Of a stretch of 64,000 bases of DNA, positions 26,917-32,957 are shown piece after piece. A model generated the notes under the pieces. It was not told where the DNA came from and ran no database searches. It worked only from the letters and a program-made list of their open reading frames with translations. The stretch comes from Plasmodiophora brassicae (taxonomy: Eukaryota), in assembly GCA_036867785.1 (NCBI GenBank), contig CP145420.1:868001-932000 (forward strand). The letters run 5' to 3'. Numbering within the stretch: position 1 is the first letter of the stretch; each line of letters begins with the position of its first letter. The position numbers and the translations under genes are program-made.

Positions 26917-28413
26917 ATGCCGGGTAGGAAGAGGAAGGCGCCGGCTACCAACGCCGGCGAAACTGCCCCAGCGAAGACGTTGGTTGCACCAACATCCGTA
27001 ACTTCGCAACCCGTCCCTGAAGTCGACCAAATGTTTGGCCATACGACGGGGACGATCGTCGCTCCGTTCTTTGCTACCCTGAACCAGACAAACATCGCCG
27101 CGAACAACAACAAATTCTACAGACTGCAATTGTTCCAGGACGGCGGCAAGTATTACGTCGGCACCCACTGGGGCCGTGTCGGTGAAGCGGGCCAGACCAA
27201 GGTCGCTGTCCAGAAAGATCGCGCGACGGCCGAAATGGAATTCGGCAGGATCTTCGAATCGAAAACGGGCAACAACTGGCGTGACCGAGATGCTTTCGTT
27301 AATCGTCCTGGTAAATACGATCTCATCCAGATCGATCCTAATGCGCCACCATCTGCTGAACCAGCGTCGAAATCGGCGCCACTTGCGGCCAGCGAACTCG
27401 ACGACCTGACACGCGATCTCATCGAAATGGTGTTTGACCGGGACATGTTCAAGACAGCGATGAAAAACCTGGATGTGGATGTGGCCAAGCTGCCGCTGGG
27501 CAAACTTCGTCAGTCGCAGATTGATGCTGGGCACGCTGTCCTGGAACAGATCGAAGCTGTAACGACCGGTTCCGAAGACCGAAATGAGCTCGTTCAGCTG
27601 TCTTCCAGGTTCTTCACGATTATTCCGCATTCGTTCGGCCGGCAGCGCCCTCCTGTAATCGACACGAGGGACTCCCTGCAGAAGCTCTATGACCTCATGG
27701 CGGTTCTCAGTGACATCAGTCTGGCTAACAACATACTTGAATCGACGACAAGGGGATCGCTACATCCAACGGATACCCTGTACCGCAAACTTGGAGCAAA
27801 GCTGTCACTCCTGCAGAAGACGAGCCCCGAGTATCAGACGGTACGTGCCTATGCTGAAGTCAACGGCAATCCCTGGAAGGTTGTCGCTGCCTGGCGTATT
27901 GACCGGCAAGATGACGCCAGGCGTTTCGCTGCCCATGACGCGATCGCGAACCGGAAACTGCTGTGGCACGGCACCGAGGTCGCCGTCGTAGCCGCTATTA
28001 TGAAAAGCGGGCTGCGAATCATGCCTCATTCGGGCGGACGGGTTGGGCGCGGCGTGTACCTGGCGTCATTGAACGAGAAGAGCCGGATGTATACGCGTGG
28101 AACGAACTGGAATGGGAAACACGCCAAAGTCATGTTCCTGGCGGAGGCTGCGCTAGGTCGCGAACATCACATCGTTCATGATAGCTCCTGGCTGACACAC
28201 CCGCCTGCTGGTTTCGACTCCGTCGTTGCCAAAGGGCGTGTGGACCCCGATCCTCAGGGCAGCACGACGTTGACTCTCGACGGCAAGACCGTTGTTGTCG
28301 ATACTGGCCCACCACGCGTTACCCCGTTCTCCCACAGTTCGTTCCACCATTCCGAATACCTCATCTATGACGAGAGCCAGCACCGCCTTCGTTACCTGGT
28401 ACTACTGGAATAG
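26917..28413 (+). CDS. PARP3: Poly(ADP-ribose) polymerase, PARP3-like (WGR, regulatory and catalytic domains)
   Basis: NNNKFYRLQL..HWGRVG (WGR), LPLGKL..SRFFTIIPHSFG (regulatory), and LLWHGT, IMPHSGGRVGRGVYLAS, SEYLIY (H-Y-E triad). Intronless. Confidence 0.93.
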   Translation: MPGRKRKAPATNAGETAPAKTLVAPTSVTSQPVPEVDQMFGHTTGTIVAPFFATLNQTNIAANNNKFYRLQLFQDGGKYYVGTHWGRVGEAGQTKVAVQKDRATAEMEFGRIFESKTGNNWRDRDAFVNRPGKYDLIQIDPNAPPSAEPASKSAPLAASELDDLTRDLIEMVFDRDMFKTAMKNLDVDVAKLPLGKLRQSQIDAGHAVLEQIEAVTTGSEDRNELVQLSSRFFTIIPHSFGRQRPPVIDTRDSLQKLYDLMAVLSDISLANNILESTTRGSLHPTDTLYRKLGAKLSLLQKTSPEYQTVRAYAEVNGNPWKVVAAWRIDRQDDARRFAAHDAIANRKLLWHGTEVAVVAAIMKSGLRIMPHSGGRVGRGVYLASLNEKSRMYTRGTNWNGKHAKVMFLAEAALGREHHIVHDSSWLTHPPAGFDSVVAKGRVDPDPQGSTTLTLDGKTVVVDTGPPRVTPFSHSSFHHSEYLIYDESQHRLRYLVLLE

Positions 28414-28467
28414 GTGCAACATGAAGTTTGATGAAGTGCATATAAGTATTTCTTCCGTGAGACGTAT

Positions 28468-29304
28468 TCATGGGTGGTTGTTCGATGGACTGGCCAGGCG
28501 GCGAATGTTTCGTACCTTGCCTGTCGTCGTATTGCGCTGCGTGCCGTTTCCTAGGTCGATGGCGTATTGGTATTCACCGCTAGCGACGATACGATGGGTG
28601 AGGATAGCACTCAGGTTCTGATTGCCGTACAGGGCGGCGTGCAGCTCTTCGACGACATCGTTGCCCTCGGCATCGTAATTGTACCATCCGTTAACCTTGC
28701 CGTCCACATTATCCGTAACTTCATACTGCCACTGCACGCCTCCTTGACGGGACGCTGCCACGGCCGCCGCAGGGTTGGATGCCAGCAGGCAGTACTTGCC
28801 GGGAATCTGCGCGAAACCCTTCCGATCGCAGACTTCTTTCCAATTGTGCCCGGTCTTGTCCAGGAACTTCTTCTCGAACAGCGACACCGCCTCATCGGGT
28901 GCGGAAAATGGCCCCGACACCTGGTTCTGGCCTTTCGTACCAGTACGCCCCCAACGATTGAAGAAGTAGAATTTCCCTCCCTGGTTCACGATCTGGATAA
29001 TGTAGAACTAAAGGCAATGTTAAACAATGCTCCTTGTTGTTTGCCGTCTCTTGACCTTGTCACTCGTCATGTCCACGTAACACAGCGCTGCATCGTATGG
29101 GGTCCCGTCGTCGTTTTCGTAGACAATAGCACCAGGACCGGCGATGGCGCCGAACACGACGTCCACTGGAACGCCTGGGCCATACACTCTCGCGCGTGAC
29201 GCACGCTGCCTCTGCTTGGTGACCTTCTTTACTGTGGGCGGTGGCGGCGGAACATTCGCGCGATGGTTCGCCTGGTTGGCAATACGTGTCGAGCGGCGAA
29301 GCAT
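28468..29304 (-). CDS. WGR-domain plus WWE-domain protein without catalytic domain
   Basis: FYIIQIV..FNRWGRTG..FEKKFLDKTGHNW..GKY (WGR), then VQWQY..GWYNYD..VEE..YQYAIDL..QRNTTTGKVRNIRR (WWE); 1 intron. Confidence 0.85.
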
Positions 29305-29474
29305 GAATCGGACTGCTGAGGTGACCTCAGAAAATATTATGCGCGGCATTCCGCATTCGGCATGCCGCGTGCGTGACATCGTGACGGGTACCGTATTTGT
29401 TGACGTCGGCGGCCGGCGGCCTTGACCGGGGGTTTCCGGACAGTTGTACAATGGGCGTAGATCGGAGTCCTTGA

Positions 29475-30825
29475 ATGTTCAACGGCGTGTGTGTTGCGAT
29501 GAAGCACGCGGCCGTCGATTCCTTCTGGGTTGGATCGCTGCAGCGAACAGTATTCCCTGTTATTAACCTTGTGACAGTTTTCTGTCCGACTATTTGCGTC
29601 GGCGTGGTGCCTGTCGTTTATGGCGGGATTCGTTCTGGTCCTGTATTCTGGCACGTTTCCTGCGTCGGATGTGCTCCGGTTGGTTCTAATTGCGATCGGT
29701 TGCCTCCTCTTTGTTGCGTCGTTCGTTATTCTCTTCGTGGTACGAAACGCGGTCGTCCAAATGCTTCGGAACCAGAAATCAGATGATGATGATGATGACG
29801 ATGATGACAATGGAGCCGGCCGCACGCTATCGTTACCTTCCGGACTGGTTCCCGATTCCCTTGACCCAGTTGACCCAGAACCCGCTGTTCCCGGTGAAAT
29901 TCGACGCATCATTAATGAGGTGCACAGTTGTGACTTGGGCGATGTCCCTAAAGGAATGTGGACGGCGTTTTATGTGAGCGACGGCGGCGCTCTCGCGCGA
30001 AAGTACCTCTCCCAGAAACCATCAGTGAAAGAAGCTCGGCAACTTGTTATGCGGTCGGACCTCATGAAGAAACCGTGCGCAATCTTTCGCGTGAATGAGG
30101 ATCTCGATGACGTACATGATCGAGTCGGCGATGTCTTCGGAGACGATGACGAGGCGATGGGATCTGTTGTCGAGGACTGCCGGGCTTTACTGCCCGTTCA
30201 AGTAAAGGTCGACCGGGTGACGGACTCGTTCACGTTGGTTGATGATACGGGGTGTAACTCCTTATTCCTGTATAACCGCAGACGCCTGCCGATGCCAGCG
30301 GGCGCCATCTTTTTCAAGCGTGTCAACACGGCCGCAGGTAAACAATGGGTTATCGAAGCCGTTTCCGATAGCCGGATGGTCGCAAGCCTTGTGAATATGC
30401 ATTTTAAGCCTGTTCAGCAAATATCGTTCCTGCTTGACCCGCAATTAATTCATGAAATGTACACGCCGGGGATTCGTGTTCATCCGACGGTTCGCCAAAG
30501 TGCATTTGCGGCACTGGACGCGGCGTGGGCAGATCCTGTTCTCACCCATTGGCTGGGCCACGTGTTTGCCCCGCCGACGAATGCTGAGACTGACGCGTTA
30601 TTATTGCGTCACCGCTTGATCCCGGTACTGACAGCTCCTGCACCCGGCGCACCCTTAATCGATGGTCTACTGGGAATGCAGTACCGTTTGCAAATTGGCG
30701 TATTTCAAGATTATGTTGACGGTAAAGGTTTATTGTATTTCGATAAGCCTTCCGACCGTTCAACGCGAAAGGCCATCCGTGCAGCTTTTGAGAACGTGAA
30801 AGGAATTGCGCCTCTGAATCTTTGA
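29475..30825 (+). CDS. Hypothetical protein with N-terminal TM helices and poly-Asp tract
   Basis: 401-aa open frame 29620-30825 with a probable upstream exon joined by intron 29529-29577. No family recognised. Confidence 0.65.
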
Positions 30826-30829
30826 GCGA

Positions 30830-32957
30830 ATATAGCCTTGCCAATCGAACCAGCCAGCTACCTATGCAGTCAATACGTTCCCGACCCACAGACCGGCAGA
30901 TAGTAGTCACCATCATATATACTACTTTACTGTATGAATGGATACGATGCAAAGCTGGCCGTGACATAACAGATTGCTGGCAATATACACGATTACGTCA
31001 GCCGACAAGTTGCCGCAGGCGGATGATAATCGGTATGAGGTTGTGCCAGCGAGACAGCAGAACGGAGAACAGGTCATCCGATGGCGGTGGTCGTAGTGAA
31101 CGATATATGCCAGGGCATAACTCCAGCATAGTCCCGAAAGCGACCAACAACTTGATCATCAGAGCGTCTTGCGTTGTGCGCATGAAACAAGCGTTCAGCA
31201 ACTCCCTCAAAAGCGTGCGCTTATCCGCATCGCCCATTCGAGGTGCCATTAGGGCGTAATTGCCCATCAGCTCGATCGCAAAGAACGAGTCCAGCCCGTC
31301 GCCTTCGCAAATTAATGGCTTGCAAATGCCCATCATCTATGCATTGACATGAGCGGGGCTATGAAATAGACAAATGCGAATCTTACATGAGAAAAGGACG
31401 ACAGGGCAAACGAATGTGCAAAGTTGTGCTTAATAGCACACGCGGTCAAGTTGATAGCAAACGCGAGACCGATCTGCGTCACCGCCTCCGATTGCGTTTC
31501 GATGCAGATCGACGTTATTCGAGGGATCAGCGATGATGCCAGGGGGGATGACAGAATGCGTTCAGTGCCTGGTGACGGTGATGGTTAACGTTCGGACCGA
31601 AACATTACGCTCGGAGGAGGCACACCTGAACGATGTCGGATGACGCTGGCGAACAGCCCGATTACGTGGGCAGGAGCAATGACCATCACATCAAGCAGAA
31701 GCGTCAGGACGGCGAATTCCACATCCGATATTTCTGCACTGCTATCGGGAGCCGATATCCTTTAAACCCATTGTCAGATCCAGAGAGACCGGAGCTAACG
31801 CCATGCCGCACCGAGTTGCAAGGTCAACGAGGACATCCATTTGGTCTGGTGACAGGCGATCCAAGAATGGACGAGCAAGACGAATCGTGGAGATCACGTC
31901 TTGCAGCATTGATGCATCGACAACGATGAACGGCTGGCGCGCCGAGAAGATGTTCTGCTCTCTTGATTCCGCCCTGGGGGACGCCGACCCGCTGCGAGGA
32001 GCTGCTGACAATGTGTCAACGACTGACGCGACGCATCGCACACGACTTACGCAGGCATCGACATCGATGTGCAGAATTACTGCCGCAATCGCAGTAGAAG
32101 GCATCCGATGTCACGACCTCGGACAGATCGTGCCCTTCATGGCAGACCGCTGCACACGACAGGCACACGCCCCGTCCTTCGACTAACCCGCACGTCCTAC
32201 AGCACCGAAACTGCTGCGGGACGAAACGGTCTCTCGTGATCGAATAGGTACATATGCGGGCCCGAACAGCATGGGCTATGGCCATCGCTAGCCTGTCAGG
32301 TCTTCGGCCGCCCGCGCCTGACGACCACGTCAGGCATCGTCGGGAGGTGATCGACAGGCAGGGCTTACGAGGGGAGTTGAACAGGATGCCAACCAGTTGC
32401 GTGATCTGGGGTGGTGTGAGGGGCGTGTCGATGTCGGGATCGTCCTCATGATCGAGCAGCCATTCCATGGCGGCCTGCGTGTCGCGGTTGTTCAGGAGCA
32501 GGGCCTTGACGACACGGGATTCGGGGAACCCCATGGCAACGAGTGGTTCGCGAGCGGCCGCCGTAACGGATCCGTGCAGCAATGCGATCGCCTCATGGAA
32601 CGGAATTTCGACGTAGCCGTTGGACTCTTCCAGCGCAAGCCCAGACGCCCTCTGCAACGGGGTCGTTTCGAGCGAGGGCTCTATGCGGACCGCTTCCGCA
32701 GCCCTCGTCCGCCGCTCCGGATCGATAACGAACGCGACAACGTGCACATTCGCGGACGCGTCGGACGGGAACGACGCCAGTGCGGCGTCGTCGTCGAGAA
32801 GCGACCCGGATCGGACCACGGCGACGAGCTCGGGCGCGACGCCCAGTCGCAGGGCGATCCGCTGGCGAAGTTGCCGTGCAGTCGCGCACCCGGACAACGA
32901 CAGCAGCTGCCGTTGCCGGTCCGGCTGGACGACGCGCACGACGCAGTCAACCGCCAT
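30830..32957 (-). CDS. UBL-UBA-UBR-box zinc-finger protein with helical C-terminal region (3' end approximate)
   Basis: Ubiquitin-like N-terminus, LVAMGFPESRVVKALL..AMEWLL (UBA) and CTY..CRTCGL..GVCLSCAAVCHEGHDL..FYCDCG (UBR box). A GTAAGT donor after HRCRCL links in frame to downstream exons. Confidence 0.75.

What the first reader, a model, noticed from the sequence alone, without database searches (positions are those of the whole stretch)
26917..29304. PARP3-like writer tail-to-tail with a catalytic-less WGR-WWE reader: possible ADP-ribosylation module
Seen: an intronless PARP with an intact H-Y-E triad ends 54 bp from the stop of a convergent gene encoding a basic N-terminus, a WGR domain and a WWE domain, with no catalytic domain. 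Established: WGR domains of PARP1-3 sense DNA breaks, and WWE domains (e.g. RNF146) bind iso-ADP-ribose. WGR and WWE normally occur in different PARP subfamilies. Inference: the WGR-WWE protein could be a coincidence detector for DNA breaks plus ADP-ribose and a dedicated partner, adaptor or decoy of the adjacent PARP. Such functional clustering is unusual in eukaryotes.
Basis: partly seen in the sequence, partly recalled or inferred. Interest (0 to 1): 0.75.

Follow-up and report, generated by a model that had tools for sequence, protein, structure and literature searches.

The report
Split PARP3 with break-sensing reader partner
Two neighbouring genes of the clubroot parasite are the separated halves of a DNA-damage enzyme that many algae and protists make as one protein; the non-enzymatic half, which looks built to grip both a DNA break and the ADP-ribose mark the enzyme writes, belongs to a widespread, apparently unstudied family.

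Summary
Observation confirmed. An intronless PARP3-type gene (H-Y-E intact) ends 54 bp from a convergent, spliced two-exon gene encoding a basic tail, WGR and WWE and no catalytic domain. The genome is Plasmodiophora brassicae; these are its only WGR, WWE and PARP-domain matches (lower bound). The pair is the split form of a fused WGR-WWE-linker-WGR-regulatory-PARP protein of algae and stramenopiles (7 of the PARP's 8 best foreign hits). Stand-alone WGR-WWE proteins are a widespread eukaryotic family (oomycete, chytrids, metagenomes), and sit beside a PARP3-type gene in two more eukaryotic contigs, in other orientations. The two WGRs are not local duplicates (p-AU 0.003). Best reading: a non-activating break binder recruited by this PARP's (probably mono-) ADP-ribose. 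Binding is untested. No paper found; the scan had not noted this family before.

The parts
26917..28413 (+). PARP3-type ADP-ribosyltransferase gene, intronless, 498 aa (WGR-B, regulatory helical domain, catalytic domain)
   Evidence: ORF; Pfam; covered by single contigs in all 4 laid runs; best hits PARP3-type
27073..27297 (+). WGR-B domain of the enzyme; keeps Asn at the PARP2 N127 and N129 positions (N63, N65)
27391..27783 (+). PARP regulatory (helical, autoinhibitory) domain
27823..28401 (+). Catalytic domain with H351, Y381, E480 and the short PARP3-type D-loop
28414..28467 (.). 54-bp gap between the two stop codons; transcript contigs of the two genes meet or overlap here
28468..29007 (-). 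Exon 2 of the WGR-WWE gene (most of WGR-A, helical spacer, WWE, stop)
28498..28737 (-). WWE domain with conserved ADP-ribose pocket (Y203, Y256, Q265, N267, R274 in P0001 numbering)
28828..29097 (-). WGR-A domain (interrupted by the intron); keeps DNA-break contacts, has Asp107 at the PARP2 N129 position
29008..29055 (-). 48-nt GT-AG intron
   Evidence: joint 29007/29056 in runs X1 and X7; ends checked
29056..29304 (-). Exon 1: basic, predicted disordered N-terminus and start of WGR-A (the public model starts at 29379)

Best explanation
The two genes are the split halves of a protist PARP3-type protein that elsewhere is one chain: basic tail, WGR-A, WWE, a flexible linker, then WGR-B, regulatory domain and catalytic domain (shown by homology and trees). 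The enzyme half binds a 5'-phosphorylated DNA break through WGR-B and, with its Asn relay intact, switches on and writes probably mono-ADP-ribose (inferred from PARP2/PARP3). The other half is a reader: its WWE binds that ADP-ribose, and its basic tail and WGR-A bind DNA at the break, plausibly the second nick of a bridged double-strand break, which in PARP2 needs two WGR domains. Its relay residue is Asp, so it holds the break without activating an enzyme (inferred). In the fused form a flexible tether supplies co-localisation; in the split form the shared break and the ADP-ribose mark do, with no stable protein interface needed. The convergent layout is what one inversion with a breakpoint in the linker would leave (inferred). 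Odds: split/fused relationship about 0.9; joint binding of breaks and ADP-ribose about 0.7; the whole mechanism about 0.55.
For: 14 of 120 listed PARP homologues, and 7 of the 8 best foreign ones, carry two or more WGRs plus WWE; P0001 aligns collinearly with their N-terminal WGR-WWE at 33-45% identity over about 180-240 aa. WGR-A and WGR-B are separate clades (100/99; 99). P0001 lies in a 7-member clade with 3 fused proteins (97); fused and stand-alone forms interleave, with 9-11 changes forced by strong branches. 32 of 70 metagenome loci are stand-alone with a stop within 20 aa of a whole WWE, 9 fused (duplicates included). PARP3-type genes neighbour the stand-alone gene in L041/L042 (head to head, about 270 bp between starts) and L029 (same strand, about 1.7 kb upstream, own stop). 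Positions matching PARP2 K130, W151, R153, K183, Y201 are kept in WGR-A (K 89/95, W 85/95, R 88/95, K 92/95, Y 93/95); the N129 position is D in 94/95 WGR-A and N in 71/71 WGR-B; N129A keeps DNA affinity but is inactive, and two PARP2 molecules bridge a break (PMC8190142). WWE Y203, W216, R247, Y256, Q265, N267, R274 are invariant in 154 of 154 domains. WGR-A to WWE spacing is tight (median 24 aa) while the linker to the enzyme is 35-152 aa and Ala/Pro/Lys-rich and disordered in a model of a fused protein.
Against: No binding, localisation or genetic test exists. Linkage is not general: no PARP was seen in the available flanks of 3 of 5 distinct metagenome loci of 3.9 kb or more (L023, L070, L074; flanks one-sided and short), and the two near-identical chytrid records carry the halves on different contigs. 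None of the three linked cases has the layout that a simple in-place stop codon would give. P0001 itself has lost the N127-equivalent (T105, in a shortened loop), a residue needed for stable DNA binding in PARP2. The WWE loop facing the distal phosphate is acidic, so polymer binding may be weak. The direction (fission or fusion) is not fixed: sampling was driven by my queries, trees are short (117-472 columns), and some stand-alone calls may be truncated gene models. Absence of other PARPs in the genome is a lower bound.
Confidence: 0.55

Rival explanations
1. Same origin, but the freed WGR-WWE protein is a general break and ADP-ribose adaptor, not tied to this enzyme; adjacency is only a relic.
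For: Unlinked in chytrids and not seen linked in 3 of 5 longer loci; many stand-alone members have long, varied N- or C-terminal tails.
Against: In this genome the neighbour is the only PARP-domain locus found, so it is the likely writer; every fusion with a catalytic domain whose D-loop could be measured is PARP3-type (37 of 38).
Confidence: 0.17
2. A brake or decoy: once ADP-ribose accumulates, the reader takes over the break and, unable to relay activation, displaces or caps the enzyme.
For: DNA contacts kept but relay Asn changed to Asp in 94 of 95; the WWE would make loading depend on prior enzyme output.
Against: The same module is covalently tethered to the enzyme in many lineages, which fits retention or bridging more simply; no direct data.
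Confidence: 0.15
3. The halves form a stable heterodimer that rebuilds the fused protein, with WGR-A acting on the regulatory domain in trans.
For: Repeated fusion and fission; the invariant Asp could make a different contact.
Against: Long, variable, low-complexity linker; the model of a fused protein has a disordered linker and pTM 0.61, close to the enzyme block's share of the chain (no inter-domain error is given, so this is a hint).
Confidence: 0.1
4. A local duplicate, broken fragment or mis-called part of a longer PARP with no function of its own.
For: Public records name it an ADP-ribosyltransferase; one run shows an unspliced contig.
Against: AU test rejects one clade for the two WGRs (p 0.00277); no DNA similarity beyond a 12-base word; intact spliced frame; opposite strand to the PARP and no strand-changing joint in 4 runs; invariant pocket residues; stand-alone family in several lineages.
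Confidence: 0.03

Closest known systems
Human PARP3 (ARTD3), Clade 1H of Citarelli et al. (PMC2964712)
   Same: WGR-regulatory-catalytic layout, H-Y-E triad, short D-loop, 43-48% identity to animal PARP3s
   Different: The window enzyme falls outside the animal/choanoflagellate PARP3 clade, among fused forms, sister to a chytrid PARP; no animal PARP3 among the listed hits carries WWE.
Fused WGR-WWE-WGR-regulatory-PARP proteins of Ulva, Bryopsis, Myrmecia, Ascophyllum, Hondaea and unnamed eukaryotes (database entries; no family name found)
   Same: Both window proteins align to them in order, end to end
   Different: Here two convergent genes, with no linker.
Human PARP2 WGR domain (PDB 6F5B, 6USJ, 7AEO) and WWE-bearing non-mammalian PARP2 (PMC4245714)
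   Same: Best structural and profile match of WGR-A; basic N-terminus; DNA-contact residues kept; WWE and WGR in one chain
   Different: Order is WGR then WWE; relay Asn129 is Asp; no regulatory or catalytic domain follows; the associated enzyme is PARP3-type.
WWE readers RNF146, HUWE1, TRIP12, DTX1, PARP11
   Same: Fold and adenine/proximal-phosphate pocket
   Different: No ubiquitin-ligase domain; an acidic insertion with a near-invariant Lys (150/154) and an extra invariant Arg; joined to a DNA-binding WGR.

Membership tests
PARP3-type Clade 1 PARP (gene 26917-28413) | WGR + regulatory + catalytic domains | tested here: met
PARP3-type Clade 1 PARP (gene 26917-28413) | H-Y-E triad | tested here: met
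   H351, Y381, E480
PARP3-type Clade 1 PARP (gene 26917-28413) | Shortened D-loop without the proline-rich polymerase motif | tested here: met
   same length as PARP3, 4 residues shorter than two PARP2-like controls; criterion from PMC13507078
PARP3-type Clade 1 PARP (gene 26917-28413) | Groups with PARP3, not PARP1/2 | tested here: met
   separated from two PARP2-like rows by 99 support, but outside the animal PARP3 clade; no PARP1 row was included
PARP3-type Clade 1 PARP (gene 26917-28413) | DNA-break-activated mono-ADP-ribosylation | not testable with these tools
   needs an assay
PARP / ADP-ribosyltransferase (WGR-WWE gene, as public records name it) | Catalytic domain | tested here: not met
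WGR domain (PF05406), PARP2/3 break-sensing type | Profile match and fold | tested here: met
   68 bits; Foldseek rmsd 1.8 A to PARP2 WGR
WGR domain (PF05406), PARP2/3 break-sensing type | 5'-phosphate contacts K130, W151, K183, Y201 and R153, Q159, K179 | tested here: met
   K108, W127, K159, Y180, R129, Q135, K155
WGR domain (PF05406), PARP2/3 break-sensing type | Activation relay N127 and N129 | tested here: not met
   T105 and D107 in P0001; N129 position D in 94 of 95 WGR-A
WWE domain (PF02825), ADP-ribose reader | Profile match and fold | tested here: met
WWE domain (PF02825), ADP-ribose reader | Adenine-binding Gln, stacking aromatic, proximal-phosphate Tyr and Arg | tested here: met
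   Q265, Y256, R274 aligned to RNF146; Y203 placed by motif position (inferred); roles; invariant
RNF146-type iso-ADP-ribose (polymer) reader | Basic pocket for the distal phosphate (R110, W114, K175) | tested here: inconclusive
   Tyr at the Y107 position and a near-invariant Lys, but an acidic loop and the HUWE1-like Tyr/Asn/Thr/Arg spacing
WWE domain (PF02825), ADP-ribose reader | Measured ADP-ribose binding | not testable with these tools
   needs an assay

The most novel reading that the evidence does not exclude
The WGR-WWE module is an ancient dedicated subunit of the eukaryotic PARP3 pathway, kept either tethered or as a separate gene across algae, stramenopiles, rhizarians and chytrids and lost in animals: a second, non-activating WGR that clamps the other side of a double-strand break once the enzyme's mono-ADP-ribose appears, so that one enzyme plus one reader does what two PARP2 molecules do. 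In Plasmodiophora this two-gene unit may be the whole PARP system, and may have moved as a linked pair between zoosporic lineages.
Probability: 0.3. Interest if true: 0.8.

Novelty: new variant of a known kind. Interest (0 to 1): 0.64.

Why it matters
Readers of PARP3-type mono-ADP-ribose at DNA breaks are poorly defined (my own knowledge). A module that evolution repeatedly fuses to and splits from PARP3-type enzymes, with an invariant ADP-ribose pocket and one diagnostic swap at the known activation relay, names a candidate reader and gives a direct test of how DNA-end bridging and activation are divided between two WGR domains. It also corrects database labels that call these proteins ADP-ribosyltransferases, and offers a minimal two-protein system in an organism where only one PARP locus was found.

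Tried and rejected
Complex prediction of the two halves gave no verdict (score 0.01 against a mark of 0.34; alignments were not used); it counts neither way. Word-indexed homologue searches were insensitive for this family: exon 2 found only its own protein among 222 candidates, the 48-row alignment found 8; the full HMMER scan was needed. ESM Atlas gave one WGR cluster at 0.77 for P0001 and no usable hit for P0158. No WGR-WWE relative in viral contigs (0 of 34 pattern matches); in prokaryote genomes only 2 weak WGR-only matches of 180. A single-sequence search of the WWE against PDB was not significant. No listed holder run is on record as RNA. Local duplication rejected. Trans-splicing to rebuild the fused protein: no strand-changing joint in 4 runs, though contigs drop rare forms. 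A hidden PARP1: 10-kb stretches around the three zf-PARP matches hold no WGR, regulatory or catalytic piece. PARG: one weak match under cut-off, not followed. Literature searches for WGR+WWE+PARP (55 papers, 30 listed), with protist terms, 'WGR-WWE' (0 papers), 'two WGR domains' and WWE-PARP2 showed no description of this family in the listings; most subscription papers and all supplements were unseen, and supplementary domain tables of PMC4245714 or PMC2964712 may list such proteins.

Full report
What is in the sequence. [quoted passage not shown] H351, Y381 and E480 are invariant across 55 aligned homologues. On the other strand a two-exon gene (29304-29056, 29007-28468) gives an intact 262-aa frame, and its stop lies 54 bp from the PARP's. 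Its 48-nt GT-AG intron is skipped in contigs of runs X1 and X7, from two studies; X2 has a contig entering the intron unspliced; no joint changes strand (the runs are only guessed to be RNA, but all four skip the next gene's intron). The product has a basic N-terminus, WGR and WWE and nothing catalytic. The matching database protein is named for Plasmodiophora brassicae and labelled an ADP-ribosyltransferase. Its model (pLDDT 84.8, pTM 0.74) matches PARP2 WGR structures first and then WWE domains of TRIP12, HUWE1 and RNF146; a pTM that high with about 65 disordered residues suggests WGR and WWE form one rigid unit (inference). In the 25.3-Mb genome, searches for WGR, PARP, WWE, PARP_reg and three protein queries returned this locus only; these are lower bounds. 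The 54-bp gap is unremarkable in a genome with overlapping UTRs (PMC4815078, passages).

What it is. Of the 120 listed homologues of the PARP, 14 also carry WWE, including 7 of the 8 best foreign hits. All 14 have two or more WGR stretches, WWE, regulatory and catalytic domains; named ones are from Ulva, Bryopsis, Myrmecia, Ascophyllum and Hondaea. The WGR-WWE protein aligns to their N-terminal WGR-WWE and the PARP to the rest. So the window's pair is a split form of one protein. A full scan with P0001 (best 150 of 1504 listed) gave 146 new proteins, of which 108 have WGR-WWE only by my profiles. Of 10 looked up, three clusters carried organism or transcript names: Aphanomyces astaci, Clydaea vesicula with Lobulomyces angularis, and one marine transcript. 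The two chytrids also have a stand-alone PARP3, the Lobulomyces one being the window enzyme's best foreign hit, on other contigs. Of 70 metagenome loci, 32 end within 20 aa of a whole WWE, 9 are fused and 29 are partial or other (duplicates not removed). No relative with both domains was found in viral or prokaryote collections.

Linkage. L041 (identical to L042), an intron-rich eukaryotic contig, has the stand-alone gene head to head with a BRCT-like-WGR-regulatory-PARP gene, about 270 bp between the likely starts. L029 has a PARP gene with its own last exon and stop about 1.7 kb upstream on the same strand. Both enzymes score far higher against PARP3-type than PARP2-like proteins. Three other distinct loci of 3.9 kb or more (L023, L070, L074) show no PARP in their one-sided flanks. 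With the window, that makes three linked cases in three orientations, and linkage is not universal. One inversion with a breakpoint in the linker would give the convergent or the divergent layout (inference).

Trees. WGR domains that precede WWE (A) and those that precede the regulatory domain (B) are separate clades (99 in 166 rows; 100/99 in 40 rows), and holding the two Plasmodiophora WGRs together is rejected (p-AU 0.00277). P0001 sits in a 7-member clade with three fused proteins and the Clydaea protein (97); fused and stand-alone states interleave, with 9-11 changes forced by strong branches (truncated gene models could inflate this). The enzyme is sister to the Lobulomyces PARP (99), outside the animal PARP3 clade and among fused forms (28 stand-alone rows were hand-picked and two other searches, so direction is not established).

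How it likely works. In PARP2, K130, W151, K183 and Y201 read the 5'-phosphorylated end, R153 and N127 the 3' side (PMC6294510, passages); N129A keeps DNA affinity but is inactive, and two molecules bridge a double-strand break (PMC8190142, passages and section 6). Mapped through, WGR-A keeps the phosphate contacts in 85-93 of 95 rows, but the N129 position is Asp in 94 of 95, against Asn in 71 of 71 WGR-B rows. P0001 also lacks the N127 equivalent, which most of its family keeps (79 of 95). The WWE has Y256, Q265 and R274 aligned to RNF146 Y144, Q153 and R163 (numbering fixed by R110, W114 and Q153 in PMC10877565 and PMC11269756, passages); these and Y203, W216, R247, N267 are invariant in 154 domains. 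The Tyr/Asn/Thr/Arg spacing given for HUWE1's ADP-ribose site recurs (Y256, N267, T270, R274), and the loop near the distal phosphate is acidic as in HUWE1 and TRIP12, which prefer terminal ADP-ribose. The enzyme has the short PARP3 D-loop, as do 37 of 38 fused proteins (criterion in PMC13507078, passages), pointing to mono-ADP-ribose. In fused proteins the linker is 35-152 aa and Ala/Pro/Lys-rich, and disordered in a model. I therefore read the second gene as a non-activating break binder recruited by the neighbour's ADP-ribose mark, plausibly on the second nick of a bridged break. Domain content, homology, residue patterns and linkage are shown; every binding step is inferred.

Against what is known. 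The enzyme passes the tested PARP3-type features. Subscription papers and supplements were not seen. The scan's earlier notes hold no look-alike sequence and only analogous PARP-WWE neighbourhoods in giant viruses, which I did not check.

Verdict. A real, spliced gene pair: a new variant of PARP3-type signalling in which a conserved, unstudied WGR-WWE module is either tethered to or split from its enzyme. Interest 0.64.

Noticed in passing
Not settled by the contigs.
   Followed up: partly
window 29475-30825 (+): Gene head to head with the WGR-WWE gene; a 49-nt intron at about 29528-29576 is skipped in all four runs; hydrophobic N-terminus, acidic run, no Pfam match over cut-off.
   Followed up: no
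window 28479: T>G difference in runs X2 and X3 near the C-terminus of the WGR-WWE gene, probably a strain variant.
   Followed up: no
G000 whole genome: Only one PARP-domain locus and no PARG over cut-off were found, but about five macrodomain loci: possibly a mono-ADP-ribose-only system. Lower bounds.
   Followed up: partly
P0126 / P0294: A 1573-aa protein with repeated WWE-WGR units in front of a PARP3-type enzyme.
   Followed up: no
L059-L061, ORF ending at the WWE match: A roughly 950-aa ORF ends in this WWE type without WGR and has a weak PARP-like stretch inside.
   Followed up: no
L041:5435-4743 (-): The PARP3-type neighbour has an N-terminal segment that looks like a BRCT domain (recalled resemblance, not scanned).
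   Followed up: no
P0005 with P0007; P0001 with P0139: Both halves are close to Lobulomycetales chytrid proteins, and P0001, P0139 and P0128 share a shortened loop before the Asp-Lys motif; transfer between zoosporic lineages is possible but unproven.
   Followed up: partly
tree: The animal and choanoflagellate PARP3 clade nests among fused forms, hinting that PARP3 once carried the WGR-WWE module; sampling is biased.
   Followed up: partly
window 32016-32957 (-): ORF with UBA and UBR-box zinc finger matches, preceded by a ubiquitin-like-looking segment; a ubiquitin-pathway gene near the pair, probably unrelated.
   Followed up: no
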